Assembly (NCBI RefSeq): GCF_054482595.1 | Contig: NZ_CM137008.1 | Direction: 5' to 3' (one strand) | Length of the DNA stretch: 64,000 nucleotides | In this document: piece by piece, positions 20,409-50,328 of the stretch | How the letters are laid out: each line of letters opens with the position of its first letter | Position numbering within the stretch: position 1 is the first letter of the stretch | The notes under the pieces: model-generated | Told to the model about the DNA's origin: nothing | What the model saw: the letters and a program-made list of their open reading frames with translations, nothing else | The model's database searches: none | Translations under genes and position numbers: made by a program

Positions 20409-20469
20409 ATCGCAGATAGCAAAAAAGCGCCTTTAGGGCGCTTTTTTACATTGGTGGGTCGTGCAGGAT
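20409..20469 (-). repeat. Distal copy of a 61-bp direct repeat: lysV 3'-terminal 18 nt plus downstream terminator (att-like scar)
   Basis: Identical to 20565..20625; contains tRNA-Lys 3' end (revcomp ATCCTGCACGACCCACCA) and the hairpin aaaagcgccctaaaggcgctttttt. Confidence 0.85.
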
Positions 20470-20564: not shown

Positions 20565-20625
20565 ATCGCAGATAGCAAAAAAGCGCCTTTAGGGCGCTTT
20601 TTTACATTGGTGGGTCGTGCAGGAT
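20565..20625 (-). repeat. Proximal copy of the 61-bp direct repeat (overlaps the 3' end of intact lysV and its terminator)
   Basis: Exact 61/61 match to 20409..20469. Confidence 0.85.
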
Positions 20626-46032: not shown

Positions 46033-46050
46033 TTCCTACAACTGTAAGAT
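46033..46050 (+). promoter_or_regulatory. EvgA box upstream of yfdX
   Basis: TTCCTACA-AC-TGTAAGAT, 17/18 match to the EvgA 18-bp inverted-repeat consensus TTCYTACA-N2-TGTARGAA; a second half-site-like copy at 46073..46090. Confidence 0.6.
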
Positions 46051-46185
46051 TAAAATACTTCTTGCGATAATAACTACAAGTGTAAGATAACCCTTTCAAA
46101 ATGACCGTTGCTCTCTGATTTCTCATTTCATGCTCACCCAATATGATGGCGGCGTTTTCTAAAACTGTTAAAGAATGAGGTAAGT

Positions 46186-46818
46186 ATGAAACGTTTAATT
46201 ATGGCTACGATGGTCACAGCTATTCTGGCATCTTCAACTGTATGGGCTGCTGATAATGCACCGGTAGCGGCACAACAGCAAACTCAGCAAGTTCAGCAAA
46301 CCCAGAAAACGGCAGCAGCAGAGCGTATCTCTGAACAAGGTTTATATGCGATGCGTGACGTGCAGGTAGCGCGCCTGGCTCTGTTTCATGGCGATCCGGA
46401 AAAGGCAAAAGAACTGACCAATGAAGCTTCCGCTTTGTTGTCAGATGACAGTACCGAATGGGCAAAGTTCGCTAAGCCAGGTAAAAAGACCAATCTCAAT
46501 GATGACCAATATATTGTCATTAATGCATCTGTCGGAATTTCTGAGAGTTATGTAGCGACACCCGAAAAAGAAGCCGCGATAAAAATTGCCAATGAAAAAA
46601 TGGCGAAAGGGGATAAAAAGGGCGCAATGGAAGAGCTTCGCCTGGCCGGTGTTGGTGTAATGGAAAACCAATATCTGATGCCGCTTAAACAGACTCGTAA
46701 TGCACTTGCTGATGCGCAGAAACTGCTTGATAAAAAGCAATACTACGAGGCAAACCTGGCGCTTAAAGGTGCGGAAGATGGAATCATCGTCGATAGCGAA
46801 GCACTGTTTGTGAACTAA
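46186..46818 (+). CDS. yfdX: EvgA-regulated periplasmic protein YfdX
   Basis: 210 aa with signal peptide; matches YfdX. Confidence 0.9.
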
Positions 46819-46872: not shown

Positions 46873-46909
46873 TTTTATGACCACAATACGACAGGTTGTG
46901 GTCATAAAA
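46873..46909. terminator. 14-bp perfect inverted repeat (hairpin) downstream of yfdX
   Basis: ttttatgaccacaa-tacgacagg-ttgtggtcataaaa; could be a terminator or a protein-binding palindrome. Confidence 0.4.
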
Positions 46910-47061
46910 TTATTTGGCGCTCGCTGTTCTATAAACTCGCATTTTATATTCCTCAAAGTAAACCGCAATAATCCCGTGTCATCACAAATCATTTAATATG
47001 TTATATTTTATGGTACGCTTTAAAAAGCGTAATCATACCCTTACTTGTAAATCACCGGCGC

Positions 47062-47079
47062 TTCTTACAGTTGTAAGAA
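47062..47079 (+). promoter_or_regulatory. Perfect EvgA-box palindrome upstream of frc
   Basis: TTCTTACA-GT-TGTAAGAA, 18/18 symmetric match to the EvgA consensus, about 250 bp upstream of the frc start. Confidence 0.55.
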
Positions 47080-47329
47080 TAACATCACAAATGTCGCGAC
47101 TCTCTCTGATTACCACGAACCAATATTTATCATATTCTTCTTTTCGTCCTCACTACTTACCATGCAGAAAGGAATTGGAAGTAGCGATGAAATGATTTTC
47201 AGCACTTGATACAGGAATGTAAAAATATCGAGTGCAGCTACGACGATATTTTGCGGATTATTTATAGAGGCGTTATGCCTTAAATAAACGCTAAATTAAC
47301 ACATATTTAATTAACTAATAGGTATTGCT

Positions 47330-48580
47330 ATGTCAACTCCACTTCAAGGAATTAAAGTTCTCGATTTCACCGGTGTGCAATCTGGCCCATCTTGTACTCA
47401 AATGCTGGCCTGGTTTGGCGCTGACGTTATTAAAATTGAACGTCCCGGCGTTGGTGACGTAACGCGTCACCAGCTGCGAGATATTCCTGATATCGATGCG
47501 CTTTACTTCACCATGCTTAACAGTAACAAACGTTCTATTGAGTTAAATACCAAAACAGCGGAAGGCAAAGAGGTAATGGAAAAGCTGATCCGCGAAGCTG
47601 ATATCTTAGTCGAGAACTTTCATCCAGGGGCCATTGATCACATGGGTTTCACCTGGGAGCATATTCAAGAAATCAATCCACGTCTGATTTTTGGTTCGAT
47701 CAAAGGGTTTGATGAGTGTTCGCCTTATGTGAATGTAAAAGCCTATGAAAACGTTGCTCAGGCAGCGGGTGGCGCGGCATCCACTACGGGTTTTTGGGAC
47801 GGTCCGCCGCTGGTAAGCGCTGCAGCGTTGGGTGACAGCAACACCGGAATGCATTTACTGATCGGTTTACTTGCTGCTTTGCTGCATCGCGAAAAAACGG
47901 GGCGTGGGCAACGAGTCACCATGTCAATGCAGGATGCCGTATTGAACCTTTGCCGCGTGAAATTACGCGACCAGCAGCGTCTCGATAAATTGGGTTATCT
48001 GGAAGAATACCCGCAGTATCCGAATGGCACATTTGGTGATGCAGTTCCCCGCGGAGGTAATGCGGGTGGTGGCGGTCAGCCTGGCTGGATCCTGAAATGT
48101 AAAGGTTGGGAAACCGATCCTAACGCCTATATTTATTTCACTATTCAGGAGCAAAACTGGGAAAACACCTGCAAAGCCATCGGCAAACCAGATTGGATTA
48201 CCGATCCGGCATACAGTACAGCCCATGCCCGACAGCCACATATTTTCGATATTTTTGCTGAAATCGAAAAATACACTGTCACTATTGATAAACATGAAGC
48301 GGTGGCCTATTTGACTCAATTTGATATTCCTTGTGCACCGGTTTTAAGTATGAAAGAAATTTCACTTGATCCCTCTTTGCGCCAAAGTGGCAGTGTTGTC
48401 GAAGTGGAACAACCGTTGCGTGGAAAATATCTGACAGTTGGTTGTCCAATGAAATTCTCTGCCTTTACGCCAGATATTAAAGCTGCGCCGCTATTAGGTG
48501 AACATACCGCTGCTGTATTGCAGGAGCTGGGTTATAGCGACGATGAAATTGCTGCAATGAAGCAAAACCACGCCATCTGA
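47330..48580 (+). CDS. frc: Formyl-CoA:oxalate CoA-transferase (family III CoA transferase)
   Basis: 416 aa; matches Frc (YfdW). Confidence 0.95.
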
Positions 48581-48633: not shown

Positions 48634-50328
48634 ATGTCAGATCAACTTCAAATGACAGATGGTATGCATATCATCGTTGAAGCATTAAAACAGAATAATA
48701 TTGACACTATTTATGGTGTTGTAGGTATTCCTGTGACGGATATGGCGCGCCATGCCCAGGCGGAAGGCATTCGTTATATTGGTTTTCGTCATGAGCAGTC
48801 GGCAGGCTATGCCGCTGCGGCAAGCGGTTTTCTTACCCAAAAACCAGGGATCTGCCTGACAGTGTCTGCGCCAGGATTCCTCAATGGTTTGACCGCATTG
48901 GCCAACGCAACGGTAAATGGTTTTCCGATGATCATGATTAGCGGCTCCAGCGACCGCGCGATCGTCGACCTACAGCAAGGTGATTATGAAGAGCTGGACC
49001 AAATGAATGCGGCAAAACCGTATGCCAAAGCAGCATTTCGCGTTAATCAGCCGCAGGATCTTGGCATTGCATTGGCACGCGCTATCCGGGTCTCAGTATC
49101 GGGTCGCCCTGGCGGAGTTTATCTTGATTTGCCAGCAAATGTCCTGGCCGCGACGATGGAAAAAGACGAAGCGTTAACCACGATTGTAAAAGTTGAAAAT
49201 CCGTCGCCAGCATTATTGCCATGCCCGAAGTCAGTCACTAGCGCAATTTCGCTTTTAGCAAAAGCTGAACGGCCATTAATTATCCTTGGCAAAGGCGCGG
49301 CGTATTCACAAGCTGACGAACAGCTTCGTGAATTTATTGAAAGTGCCCAGATTCCATTCCTGCCAATGTCTATGGCGAAAGGGATCCTCGAAGATACGCA
49401 TCCACTTTCTGCGGCAGCTGCGCGTTCGTTTGCCCTGGCAAATGCTGACGTTGTCATGCTTGTTGGTGCACGACTGAATTGGTTACTGGCACACGGTAAA
49501 AAAGGATGGGCGGCAGATACACAGTTTATTCAACTGGATATTGAACCGCAGGAAATTGACAGCAACCGCCCCATTGCTGTGCCAGTCGTTGGCGATATTG
49601 CATCCAGTATGCAAGGTATGCTGGCAGAACTGAAACAAAACACATTTACGACTCCACTGGTATGGCGCGATATTTTAAATATCCACAAGCAGCAAAATGC
49701 ACAAAAAATGCATGAAAAATTGAGTACAGATACCCAACCATTAAATTACTTTAATGCATTGAGTGCTGTGCGCGATGTATTGCGTGAGAACCAGGATATT
49801 TATTTAGTTAATGAAGGGGCAAATACCCTGGATAATGCACGAAATATTATTGATATGTATAAACCACGTCGTCGTCTGGATTGTGGCACCTGGGGTGTCA
49901 TGGGCATCGGTATGGGCTATGCCATCGGTGCTAGCGTGACTTCTGGTTCTCCGGTTGTCGCCATTGAAGGTGATAGTGCTTTTGGTTTCAGTGGGATGGA
50001 AATTGAAACGATTTGTCGATATAACCTGCCGGTGACAATCGTTATTTTTAATAATGGCGGCATCTACAGAGGAGACGGTGTTGATCTCAGTGGCGCTGGT
50101 GCACCATCACCAACGGATCTGTTGCACCATGCAAGGTATGACAAATTAATGGATGCGTTTCGTGGCGTTGGCTATAACGTCACCACGACAGATGAACTTC
50201 GTCATGCTTTAACCACCGGTATTCAGTCGCGCAAACCGACCATTATTAACGTGGTCATCGACCCTGCAGCAGGAACTGAAAGTGGCCATATTACCAAACT
50301 GAACCCAAAACAAGTCGCTGGTAATTAA
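48634..50328 (+). CDS. oxc: Oxalyl-CoA decarboxylase (ThDP-dependent)
   Basis: 564 aa; ThDP-binding motif GDSAFGFSGMEIETICRYNLP; matches Oxc (YfdU). Confidence 0.95.
   Translation: MSDQLQMTDGMHIIVEALKQNNIDTIYGVVGIPVTDMARHAQAEGIRYIGFRHEQSAGYAAAASGFLTQKPGICLTVSAPGFLNGLTALANATVNGFPMIMISGSSDRAIVDLQQGDYEELDQMNAAKPYAKAAFRVNQPQDLGIALARAIRVSVSGRPGGVYLDLPANVLAATMEKDEALTTIVKVENPSPALLPCPKSVTSAISLLAKAERPLIILGKGAAYSQADEQLREFIESAQIPFLPMSMAKGILEDTHPLSAAAARSFALANADVVMLVGARLNWLLAHGKKGWAADTQFIQLDIEPQEIDSNRPIAVPVVGDIASSMQGMLAELKQNTFTTPLVWRDILNIHKQQNAQKMHEKLSTDTQPLNYFNALSAVRDVLRENQDIYLVNEGANTLDNARNIIDMYKPRRRLDCGTWGVMGIGMGYAIGASVTSGSPVVAIEGDSAFGFSGMEIETICRYNLPVTIVIFNNGGIYRGDGVDLSGAGAPSPTDLLHHARYDKLMDAFRGVGYNVTTTDELRHALTTGIQSRKPTIINVVIDPAAGTESGHITKLNPKQVAGN

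What the first reader, a model, noticed from the sequence alone, without database searches (positions are those of the whole stretch)
46873..46909. 14-bp perfect inverted repeat downstream of yfdX
ttttatgaccacaa / ttgtggtcataaaa with a 9-nt loop. The stem is AT-rich (4 GC of 14), unusual for an intrinsic terminator, so it could instead be an operator for a dimeric regulator. It lies between yfdX and the perfect EvgA box.
Basis: seen in the sequence. Interest (0 to 1): 0.3.

Follow-up and report, generated by a model that had tools for sequence, protein, structure and literature searches.

The report
Conserved RNA hairpin ending yfdX message
The palindrome is real and conserved, and most likely folds as an RNA hairpin that marks and protects the end of the yfdX message rather than acting as a regulator's docking site; that is an ordinary kind of element.

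Summary
The 14-bp perfect inverted repeat (46873-46886 / 46896-46909, 9-nt spacer) is real. It is the only one of that length in the window; about 0.02 are expected by chance. It lies 54 nt after the yfdX stop codon and 152 nt before the EvgA box of frc.

It is under strong selection. Against Yersinia (YfdX 84% identical), both arms are 28/28 identical, the loop is 5/9, and the rest of the spacer is 49% identical.

All variation seen fits an RNA helix on the yfdX sense strand:
- One stem pair is A-U in most E. coli, G-C in about 257 E. coli genomes and in a distant lineage, and G.U in a second Yersinia lineage.
- A common loop change turns the closing U.G pair into U-A.
- The spacing between the conserved cores differs (9 vs 11 nt), which argues against a dimeric-protein operator.

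It scores far below the canonical terminators of the same window, and the short U tract exists only in E. coli. The best reading is a 3'-end-defining and protective stem-loop, at most a leaky terminator, of the type described for Rho-dependent transcripts. No 3'-end or binding data were found, so function is inferred. It is ordinary but well supported.

The parts
46186..46818 (+). yfdX coding sequence (210 aa, periplasmic YfdX family protein). The hairpin lies in this gene's 3' untranslated region.
   Evidence: ORF list; RefSeq annotation of identical or near-identical E. coli loci; Pfam PF10938 on homologues.
46873..46886 (+). Left (5') arm of the stem, TTTTATGACCACAA.
   Evidence: It is identical in Yersinia vastinensis and Y. 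alsatica. A46880 is G in about 257 E. coli genomes, in L011 and in L012.
46887..46895 (+). Loop, TACGACAGG. U46887 and G46895 can form a closing U.G pair, which leaves a 7-nt loop.
   Evidence: Fold. The loop varies freely: TACGACAGA in about 397 E. coli genomes, TACGATAGA in L002, TATGATTGT in Yersinia, CATGATTGT in L012, and an 11-nt equivalent in L011. In strain 730V1 it is the 9-bp target duplication of an IS903B insertion.
46896..46909 (+). Right (3') arm of the stem, TTGTGGTCATAAAA.
   Evidence: T46902 is C exactly in the genomes examined where A46880 is G (L023, L024, L011), and stays T in L012, which gives G.U.
46910..46915 (+). Short interrupted U tract, TTATTT, directly after the stem. 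It is present only in the Escherichia versions.
   Evidence: Terminator-like hit of the consensus scan on the + strand only. The tail is replaced by CTCTCTG in Yersinia and GTCCTGT in L011. Tail scores are low.
46910..47061 (+). Untranslated spacer between the hairpin and the EvgA box, with more C than G (C/G 1.70). It is a candidate Rho loading and termination zone (inferred).
   Evidence: Composition: E. coli 1.70, Yersinia 1.58, L011 0.91. The class description is in PMC6061677.

Best explanation
The palindrome is transcribed as part of the yfdX mRNA and folds into a 14-15 bp stem-loop 54 nt after the stop codon. This RNA hairpin defines and protects the 3' end of the yfdX message.

In E. 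coli, the short UUAUUU tail may let it act as a weak, leaky intrinsic terminator. More generally, transcription probably ends in the C-over-G untranslated spacer downstream, either through Rho or through processing of read-through transcripts. 3'-to-5' exonucleases would then trim back to the hairpin.

The result is a stable monocistronic yfdX message that is partly uncoupled from frc-oxc-yfdVE, which has its own EvgA box and promoter 150 nt further on.

Shown here: the repeat, its non-randomness, its conservation, the sense-strand-compatible covariation, and the sub-canonical terminator features. Inferred: that a transcript 3' end forms there, the role of Rho and exonucleases, and the effect on expression.
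For: 1. Position and strand. The hairpin lies just after the yfdX stop codon, on the coding strand, and the consensus scan calls it terminator-like on the + strand only. It is more stable on the + strand than on the - strand (-18.0 vs -15.7 kcal/mol).

2. Selection. Against Yersinia, the arms are 28/28 identical and the loop 5/9, while the background spacer is 217/441 identical (49%). At that background rate, 28/28 has probability about 2e-9.

3. Pairing is what is kept.
- Pair 46880-46902 is A-U in about 4670 E. coli records, G-C in about 257 E. coli records and in L011, and G.U in L012/L013. No full-length G.T intermediate was found in E. coli.
- The commonest other E. coli variant (about 397 records) turns the closing U.G pair into U-A.
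- 94% of cells are paired in the true register, against 35-51% in slid registers.

4. The loop and the core spacing vary (9 vs 11 nt), and the AT-rich lower stem is dispensable in L011.

5. A fourth lineage (L017) has only a 124-nt yfdX-frc spacer, yet still carries a stable hairpin there.

6. It matches the published class. Stable stem-loops without a U tract or an upstream A tract, followed by mild C-over-G enrichment, mark and protect the 3' ends of Rho-dependent E. coli transcripts (PMC6061677). The spacer here has C/G 1.70 in E. coli and 1.58 in Yersinia.
Against: - No experimental 3' end at this site was found. The Term-seq tables I could search list none (Adams 2021, TERMITe and TRS). 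However, yfdX is barely expressed without EvgA activation, and other data sets were not held as text.
- The covariation rests on one stem pair and few independent events. The shuffle control for covariation is not significant on its own.
- Symmetric changes in both arms can also arise by template-switch 'correction' of quasi-palindromes (own knowledge), or by co-evolution with a dimeric binder.
- 28/28 sequence identity of the arms is more than pairing alone strictly requires.
- In L011 the downstream region is not C-over-G (0.91).
- The literature treats yfdXWUVE as one operon (PMC3720670), so any termination here must be incomplete.
Confidence: 0.62

Rival explanations
1. It is a simple, efficient Rho-independent terminator of yfdX in E. 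coli and nothing more. The hairpin plus UUAUUU releases RNA polymerase at about 46913-46917.
For: The consensus scan lists it as terminator-like on the + strand, with tail TTATTTGGCG. The stem is stable at -18 kcal/mol. frc has its own EvgA box and promoter, so a terminator between the two units makes sense.
Against: - The terminator score is -35 to -49, against +6 to +45 for canonical terminators in the same window.
- The stem has only 4 G-C pairs of 14, there is no upstream A tract, and the U tract is interrupted.
- The U tract is absent from the Yersinia and L011 versions, although the hairpin itself is conserved there.
- Published work describes yfdXWUVE as co-expressed.
Confidence: 0.15
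2. It is a double-stranded DNA operator bound by a dimeric transcription factor that regulates frc (from about 230 bp upstream of its start) or blocks read-through from yfdX.
For: It is a perfect palindrome with conserved arms and a variable centre, as in many operators. The arms are as conserved between E. coli and Yersinia as the EvgA box. The symmetric A-T to G-C change keeps the dyad symmetry.
Against: - The spacing between the conserved cores differs by 2 bp between lineages.
- L012 carries an asymmetric change that is a G.U pair in sense RNA but breaks the DNA symmetry.
- The outer half of each arm is lost in L011.
- The site is single-copy. No related site was found in the 64-kb window with a covariance model or a mismatch search, and there is no second place in E. 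coli genomes.
- It lies after a gene and far from the promoter elements.
- No candidate regulator travels with the locus. The flanking genes differ in E. coli, Yersinia and L011.
Confidence: 0.08
3. The hairpin is a sequence-specific RNA target, for example of an RNA-binding protein or a double-strand-specific RNase. That factor would actively regulate yfdX mRNA stability or the yfdX/frc expression ratio.
For: The upper-stem sequence G(A/G)CCACAA...UUGUGG(U/C)C is conserved in all three lineages, beyond what pairing alone requires. The stem is long, perfect and AU-rich, unlike typical terminators.
Against: There is no match to any Rfam family. No similar hairpin occurs elsewhere in the window or the fetched loci. 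No binding or cleavage data were found. Slow compensatory evolution under pairing selection can by itself explain the sequence conservation.
Confidence: 0.1
4. It is a functionless quasi-palindrome, kept perfect by replication template switching rather than by selection.
For: Template switching can copy a change from one arm to the other (own knowledge). That would mimic the compensatory change seen.
Against: Such correction does not slow sequence change. Yet the arms are 28/28 identical at a divergence where the surrounding non-coding DNA is 49% identical. The element is retained in 5404 of 5426 E. coli genomes and in two other lineages.
Confidence: 0.05

Closest known systems
[quoted passage not shown]
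   Same: It is a stable stem-loop just after a coding region, with no real U tract, no upstream A tract, and mild C-over-G enrichment downstream.
   Different: Rho dependence and the actual 3' end are untested here. The E. coli version has a partial U tract. The stem is longer and more AU-rich than usual. L011 lacks the C-over-G signal.
Canonical Rho-independent (intrinsic) terminators
   Same: A hairpin in the 3' UTR on the sense strand, followed in E. coli by UUAUUU. The simple consensus scan picks it up.
   Different: Only 4 of 14 stem pairs are G-C. The U tract is interrupted and not conserved. The score is far below the six canonical terminators of the same window.
Intercistronic mRNA-stabilising hairpins (for example the REP elements between malE and malF; own knowledge)
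   Same: It lies between an upstream gene and downstream genes reported as co-transcribed. It could therefore raise expression of the upstream gene relative to the downstream ones.
   Different: It is not a REP or BIME repeat. It is single-copy in the genome and has no similarity to the REP consensus (own knowledge).
Palindromic operators of dimeric regulators (for example the neighbouring EvgA box TTCTTACA-N2-TGTAAGAA)
   Same: A perfect dyad with conserved arms and a variable centre.
   Different: The core spacing varies, one asymmetric variant is compatible only with RNA pairing, the position relative to promoters is unusual, and there is no regulon-like second copy.

Membership tests
Rho-independent (intrinsic) terminator | Stable, usually G+C-rich stem-loop in the nascent RNA | tested here: inconclusive
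   The stem is stable (-18.0 kcal/mol, z -7.4), but only 4 of 14 pairs are G-C. Energy per nucleotide is well below that of the canonical terminators in the window.
Rho-independent (intrinsic) terminator | Run of U residues immediately 3' of the stem | tested here: not met
   E. coli has UUAUUUGG, with tail scores of 1.2-1.75 against 2.9-5.2 for canonical sites. The tail is absent in Yersinia (CUCUCUG) and L011 (GUCCUGU).
Rho-independent (intrinsic) terminator | Transcript 3' ends mapping in the U tract, independent of Rho | not testable with these tools
   No 3' end at MG1655 2493660-2493680 appears in the searchable supplements. The other data sets are not held.
Protective 3' stem-loop of Rho-dependent transcripts | Stable stem-loop at the transcript end, lacking a U tract and an upstream A tract | tested here: met
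   The upstream flank is a T run, not an A run.
Protective 3' stem-loop of Rho-dependent transcripts | C-over-G enrichment (rut-like) downstream | tested here: inconclusive
   C/G is 1.70 in E. coli and 1.58 in Yersinia, but 0.91 in L011.
Protective 3' stem-loop of Rho-dependent transcripts | Read-through on Rho inhibition; 3' end shifts in exonuclease mutants | not testable with these tools
   This needs Term-seq with and without bicyclomycin, and pnp/rnb mutants, under EvgA-inducing conditions.
Structured RNA element (any): evolutionary support | Base pairs maintained through compensatory or wobble changes | tested here: met
   One pair is AU:4, GC:3, GU:1, and the closing pair is UG/UA/CG. 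94% of cells are paired, against 35-51% in slid controls. About 257 E. coli genomes carry the double change and none carries the full-length single intermediate. Only one pair covaries, so support is modest.
Operator of a dimeric DNA-binding regulator | Half-sites at a fixed spacing | tested here: not met
   CCACAA-N9-TTGTGG in E. coli and Yersinia, but CCACAA-N11-TTGTGG in L011.
Operator of a dimeric DNA-binding regulator | Related sites at other genes, or a co-inherited regulator | tested here: not met
   There is no other hit in the window and one locus per E. coli genome. The flanking genes differ among lineages. Degenerate sites elsewhere in a whole genome were not scanned.
Operator of a dimeric DNA-binding regulator | Specific protein binding to the duplex | not testable with these tools
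   This needs EMSA or a DNA-affinity pull-down.
REP/BIME or other dispersed palindromic repeats; mobile-element ends | Many copies per genome, or association with mobile DNA | tested here: not met
   It is a single-copy locus. It is absent from phage records. The 'plasmid' hits are E. coli chromosome-sized records or chromosomal fragments.
Any curated Rfam family | Score at or above the family's gathering threshold | tested here: not met
   Only chance sub-threshold hits to eukaryotic miRNA models were found (27 bits against a gathering score of 92).

The most novel reading that the evidence does not exclude
The conserved upper stem, G(A/G)CCACAA...UUGUGG(U/C)C, is a sequence-specific recognition element for a protein acting on the RNA or on the DNA. 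That would make the yfdX-frc junction a regulated terminator or read-through switch, which sets how much of the EvgA-induced transcription continues into the oxalate-decarboxylation genes.
Probability: 0.1. Interest if true: 0.5.

Novelty: new member of a known kind. Interest (0 to 1): 0.2.

Why it matters
The finding clarifies the transcript architecture of an acid-stress locus. yfdX would be a largely separate, hairpin-capped message rather than simply the first gene of a yfdXWUVE operon. That bears on how yfdX and the frc/oxc oxalate pathway are dosed under EvgA control. It also gives a clean natural example of a non-canonical 3' stem-loop that is strongly conserved, with a compensatory polymorphism segregating within E. 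coli. Such an example could serve as a test case for hairpin-dependent 3'-end formation. It does not open a new class of mechanism.

Tried and rejected
- **Rfam and tRNA scans.** Rfam gave only chance miRNA-model hits. No tRNA or tmRNA was found.
- **Small ORF starting in the left arm** (46877-46996, 39 aa). Rejected: in Yersinia it stops after four codons, and L011 has no ATG there.
- **Other copies of the palindrome.** The half-site search in the window gave 12 hits with up to 3 mismatches against 6.6 expected, and none were paired. The covariance model found nothing else in the window or in 16 loci. Phage records had none, and the plasmid hits were only mis-filed chromosomal sequence.
- **Orthologue hunt by peptide patterns** in species-representative genomes gave only 9 loci. 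The Buttiauxella and Klebsiella yfdX genes sit in different contexts with unrelated downstream hairpins. L018 is a chimeric or unrelated contig.
- **Published 3'-end maps.** Nothing was found at the site, or the supplements were not held. Masuda and Church 2002 is not held.
- **First terminator score**. It did not trim A/U pairs from the stem and so under-scored canonical terminators. It was redone with trimming.
- **Rare E. coli variants.** About 78 rare variants could not be listed with the tools. One that I fetched alters only the outermost pair.

Full report
**Observation**

The window carries the E. coli locus lpxP(-), yfdY(+), ypdI(-), yfdX(+, 46186-46818), frc(+, 47330-48580), oxc(+, 48634-50328). 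It is in the reverse orientation relative to K-12.

The reported repeat is exactly as described: TTTTATGACCACAA (46873-46886), a 9-nt spacer TACGACAGG, then TTGTGGTCATAAAA (46896-46909). The arms are 100% complementary. It is the only perfect inverted repeat of 13-14 nt with a 3-20 nt loop in the 64 kb; Markov shuffles give 0.02 such repeats per window.

As RNA, the sense (+) strand folds into 15 pairs, including a U.G closing pair, at -18.0 kcal/mol (z = -7.4). The antisense strand gives -15.7 kcal/mol.

The hairpin begins 54 nt after the yfdX stop codon. It ends 152 nt before the EvgA-type palindrome TTCTTACAGTTGTAAGAA (47062-47079) and 420 nt before the frc start codon. The 37 nt are identical in MG1655 (NC_000913.3 2493676-2493712, minus strand).

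**Is it a canonical terminator?**

The simple consensus scan lists it as terminator-like on the + strand only, with tail TTATTTGGCG. A d'Aubenton-Carafa-type score (hairpin energy per nucleotide plus a weighted U-tract score, with A/U pairs trimmed) gives a different picture:

| Element | Score |
|---|---|
| yfdX hairpin, all lineages | -35 to -49 |
| Six canonical A-tract/GC-stem/T-tract terminators in the same window | +6 to +45 |

**Conservation**

Close YfdX homologues are few. They fall into E. coli, a Yersinia alsatica/vastinensis group (83-84% amino-acid identity), and two uncultured lineages at 66-68%.

Between E. coli and Y. vastinensis, the yfdX-frc spacer has decayed to 49% identity (217/441) outside three islands:
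- the hairpin arms (28/28 identical; loop 5/9);
- the EvgA box plus the adjacent promoter block;
- a block just upstream of the frc ribosome-binding site.

At background identity, 28/28 has a probability of about 2e-9. Seven Y. alsatica contigs carry the same hairpin. L002, a divergent Escherichia representative, keeps the arms but has loop TACGATAGA.

**Variation**

Blastn of the 37-mer against 5426 complete E. coli genomes found the locus in 5404 of them. It is single-copy: the 701-nt region has a median of 1 place per genome, and the double count for the 37-mer reflects its own symmetry.

| E. coli class | Records (approx.) |
|---|---|
| Identical to the window | 4670 |
| G46895A, which converts the closing U.G pair into U-A | 397 |
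| A46880G together with T46902C, a compensatory A-U to G-C switch | 257 |
| Full-length G.T intermediate | 0 |
| Other rare variants, not listed | 78 |

One rare variant that I fetched (strain OkiPb01695) changes only the outermost pair.

The same stem position is G.U in Yersinia lineage L012/L013, a pairing that works only on the sense-strand RNA. It is G-C in the 68% lineage L011.

On the nine-sequence alignment, 94% of cells pair in the true register against 35-51% in slid registers. One pair shows changes on both sides. The shuffle controls are weak because only one pair covaries.

L011 keeps a 10-bp GGCCACAACC/GGTTGTGGCC stem. It has lost the AT-rich lower stem and any U tract, and it has 11 rather than 9 nt between the CCACAA and TTGTGG cores. 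The 66% lineage L017 has a yfdX-frc spacer of only 124 nt, yet still carries a stable hairpin there, flanked by CACAA/TTGTAG.

**Interpretation**

What is conserved is a sense-strand helix, not a fixed-geometry DNA dyad. The evidence is:
- wobble pairs that work only on the yfdX strand;
- an A-U, G.U, G-C series at one stem position;
- free variation in loop sequence and length;
- position immediately after a coding region.

The U tract is neither strong nor conserved, so efficient intrinsic termination is unlikely to be the selected function.

The features match the class described by Dar and Sorek (PMC6061677). [quoted passage not shown] They protect those transcripts from PNPase and RNase II, and are followed by mild C-over-G enrichment. 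The spacer after the hairpin has C/G 1.70 in E. coli and 1.58 in Yersinia, but 0.91 in L011.

I therefore read the element as the 3'-end-defining and protective stem-loop of the yfdX message, and at most a leaky terminator in E. coli. It would partly separate yfdX from frc-oxc-yfdVE, which has its own EvgA box. This is compatible with reports that treat yfdXWUVE as co-expressed but mark separate EvgA sites for yfdX and yfdWUVE (PMC3720670).

All functional steps are inferred. No 3'-end map covering this site was retrievable, and yfdX is poorly expressed without EvgA activation.

**Rivals**

- *DNA operator.* Disfavoured by the 2-bp change in core spacing, the asymmetric L012 variant, the loss of the outer half-arms in L011, the location, the absence of any second site, and the absence of a co-inherited regulator. 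Protein binding remains untested.
- *Sequence-specific RNA-binding protein or RNase target.* This stays possible, because the upper-stem sequence is conserved beyond what pairing strictly needs.
- *Functionless quasi-palindrome kept perfect by template switching.* This would not explain 28/28 identity against a 49% background.
- *Other readings.* Rfam, tRNA, dispersed-repeat and small-ORF readings were all excluded.

**Verdict**

The element is a conserved, non-canonical 3'-UTR stem-loop of yfdX, which makes it a new member of a known kind. Interest is low to modest.

Noticed in passing
window 47062-47116: The EvgA-type palindrome TTCTTACAGTTGTAAGAA and the 37 nt after it form the most conserved block of the yfdX-frc spacer between E. 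coli and Yersinia. This includes a 20-nt identical run, GTAAGAATAACATCACAAAT, and the block TCTCTCTGATTAC. It is presumably the frc promoter core.
   Followed up: partly
window 46036-46053: A second, imperfect EvgA-like box, TTCCTACAACTGTAAGAT, lies about 130 nt upstream of the yfdX start codon. This is consistent with separate EvgA control of yfdX.
   Followed up: no
window 47279-47291: The block CTTAAATAAACGC, about 40 nt upstream of the frc start, is conserved in Yersinia and partly in L011 (caaataaacga) while its surroundings have diverged. It may be an unrecognised element of the frc leader or a second promoter.
   Followed up: no
window 47222-47252: A perfect 9-bp AT-rich inverted repeat, AAAATATCG-N13-CGATATTTT, lies in the frc upstream region. 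It is not conserved in Yersinia.
   Followed up: partly
L021 (E. coli O19:H7 strain 730V1, NZ_CP061764.1) 400-460 and 1480-1520: An IS903B element has inserted exactly into the hairpin loop. The 9-nt loop TACGACAGG is duplicated as the target-site duplication, and the two arms end up on either side of the element. An IS5 sits immediately upstream where yfdX should be.
   Followed up: partly
L017 714-837 (Logan SRR21095993): In a lineage with 66% YfdX identity, yfdX and frc are only 124 nt apart, with no room for a separate EvgA-box promoter. The spacer holds a different 9-bp hairpin, GCCATATGC/GCATATGGC, nested inside CACAAG...CGTTGTAG, which is reminiscent of the E. coli CCACAA/TTGTGG core.
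   Followed up: partly
L026-L032 (Yersinia alsatica contigs), upstream of yfdX: IS1 transposase genes lie directly upstream of yfdX in the Yersinia loci, and the upstream neighbours differ between lineages: HypF in L012, hdeA/hdeD in L011. This suggests that the yfdX-frc-oxc block moved horizontally.
   Followed up: no
L010 (NZ_GG693475.1, 241-nt scaffold of Limosilactobacillus vaginalis DSM 5837): A 241-nt scaffold in a Lactobacillus assembly encodes the last 54 residues of YfdX at 100% identity to E. coli. This is most likely contamination of that assembly.
   Followed up: no
window 20421-20447 and 20577-20603: Two identical perfect terminator-type palindromes, AAAAAAGCGCC-TTTAG-GGCGCTTTTTT, lie 156 nt apart, which suggests a tandemly duplicated small gene with its terminator.
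   Followed up: no
window 46240-46310 (yfdX codons for [13 protein letters not shown]): YfdX homologues at 91-99% identity range from 192 to 222 aa. I did not align them, so the position of the length differences is unknown; the Gln-rich stretch after the signal peptide is a plausible but unverified site.
   Followed up: no
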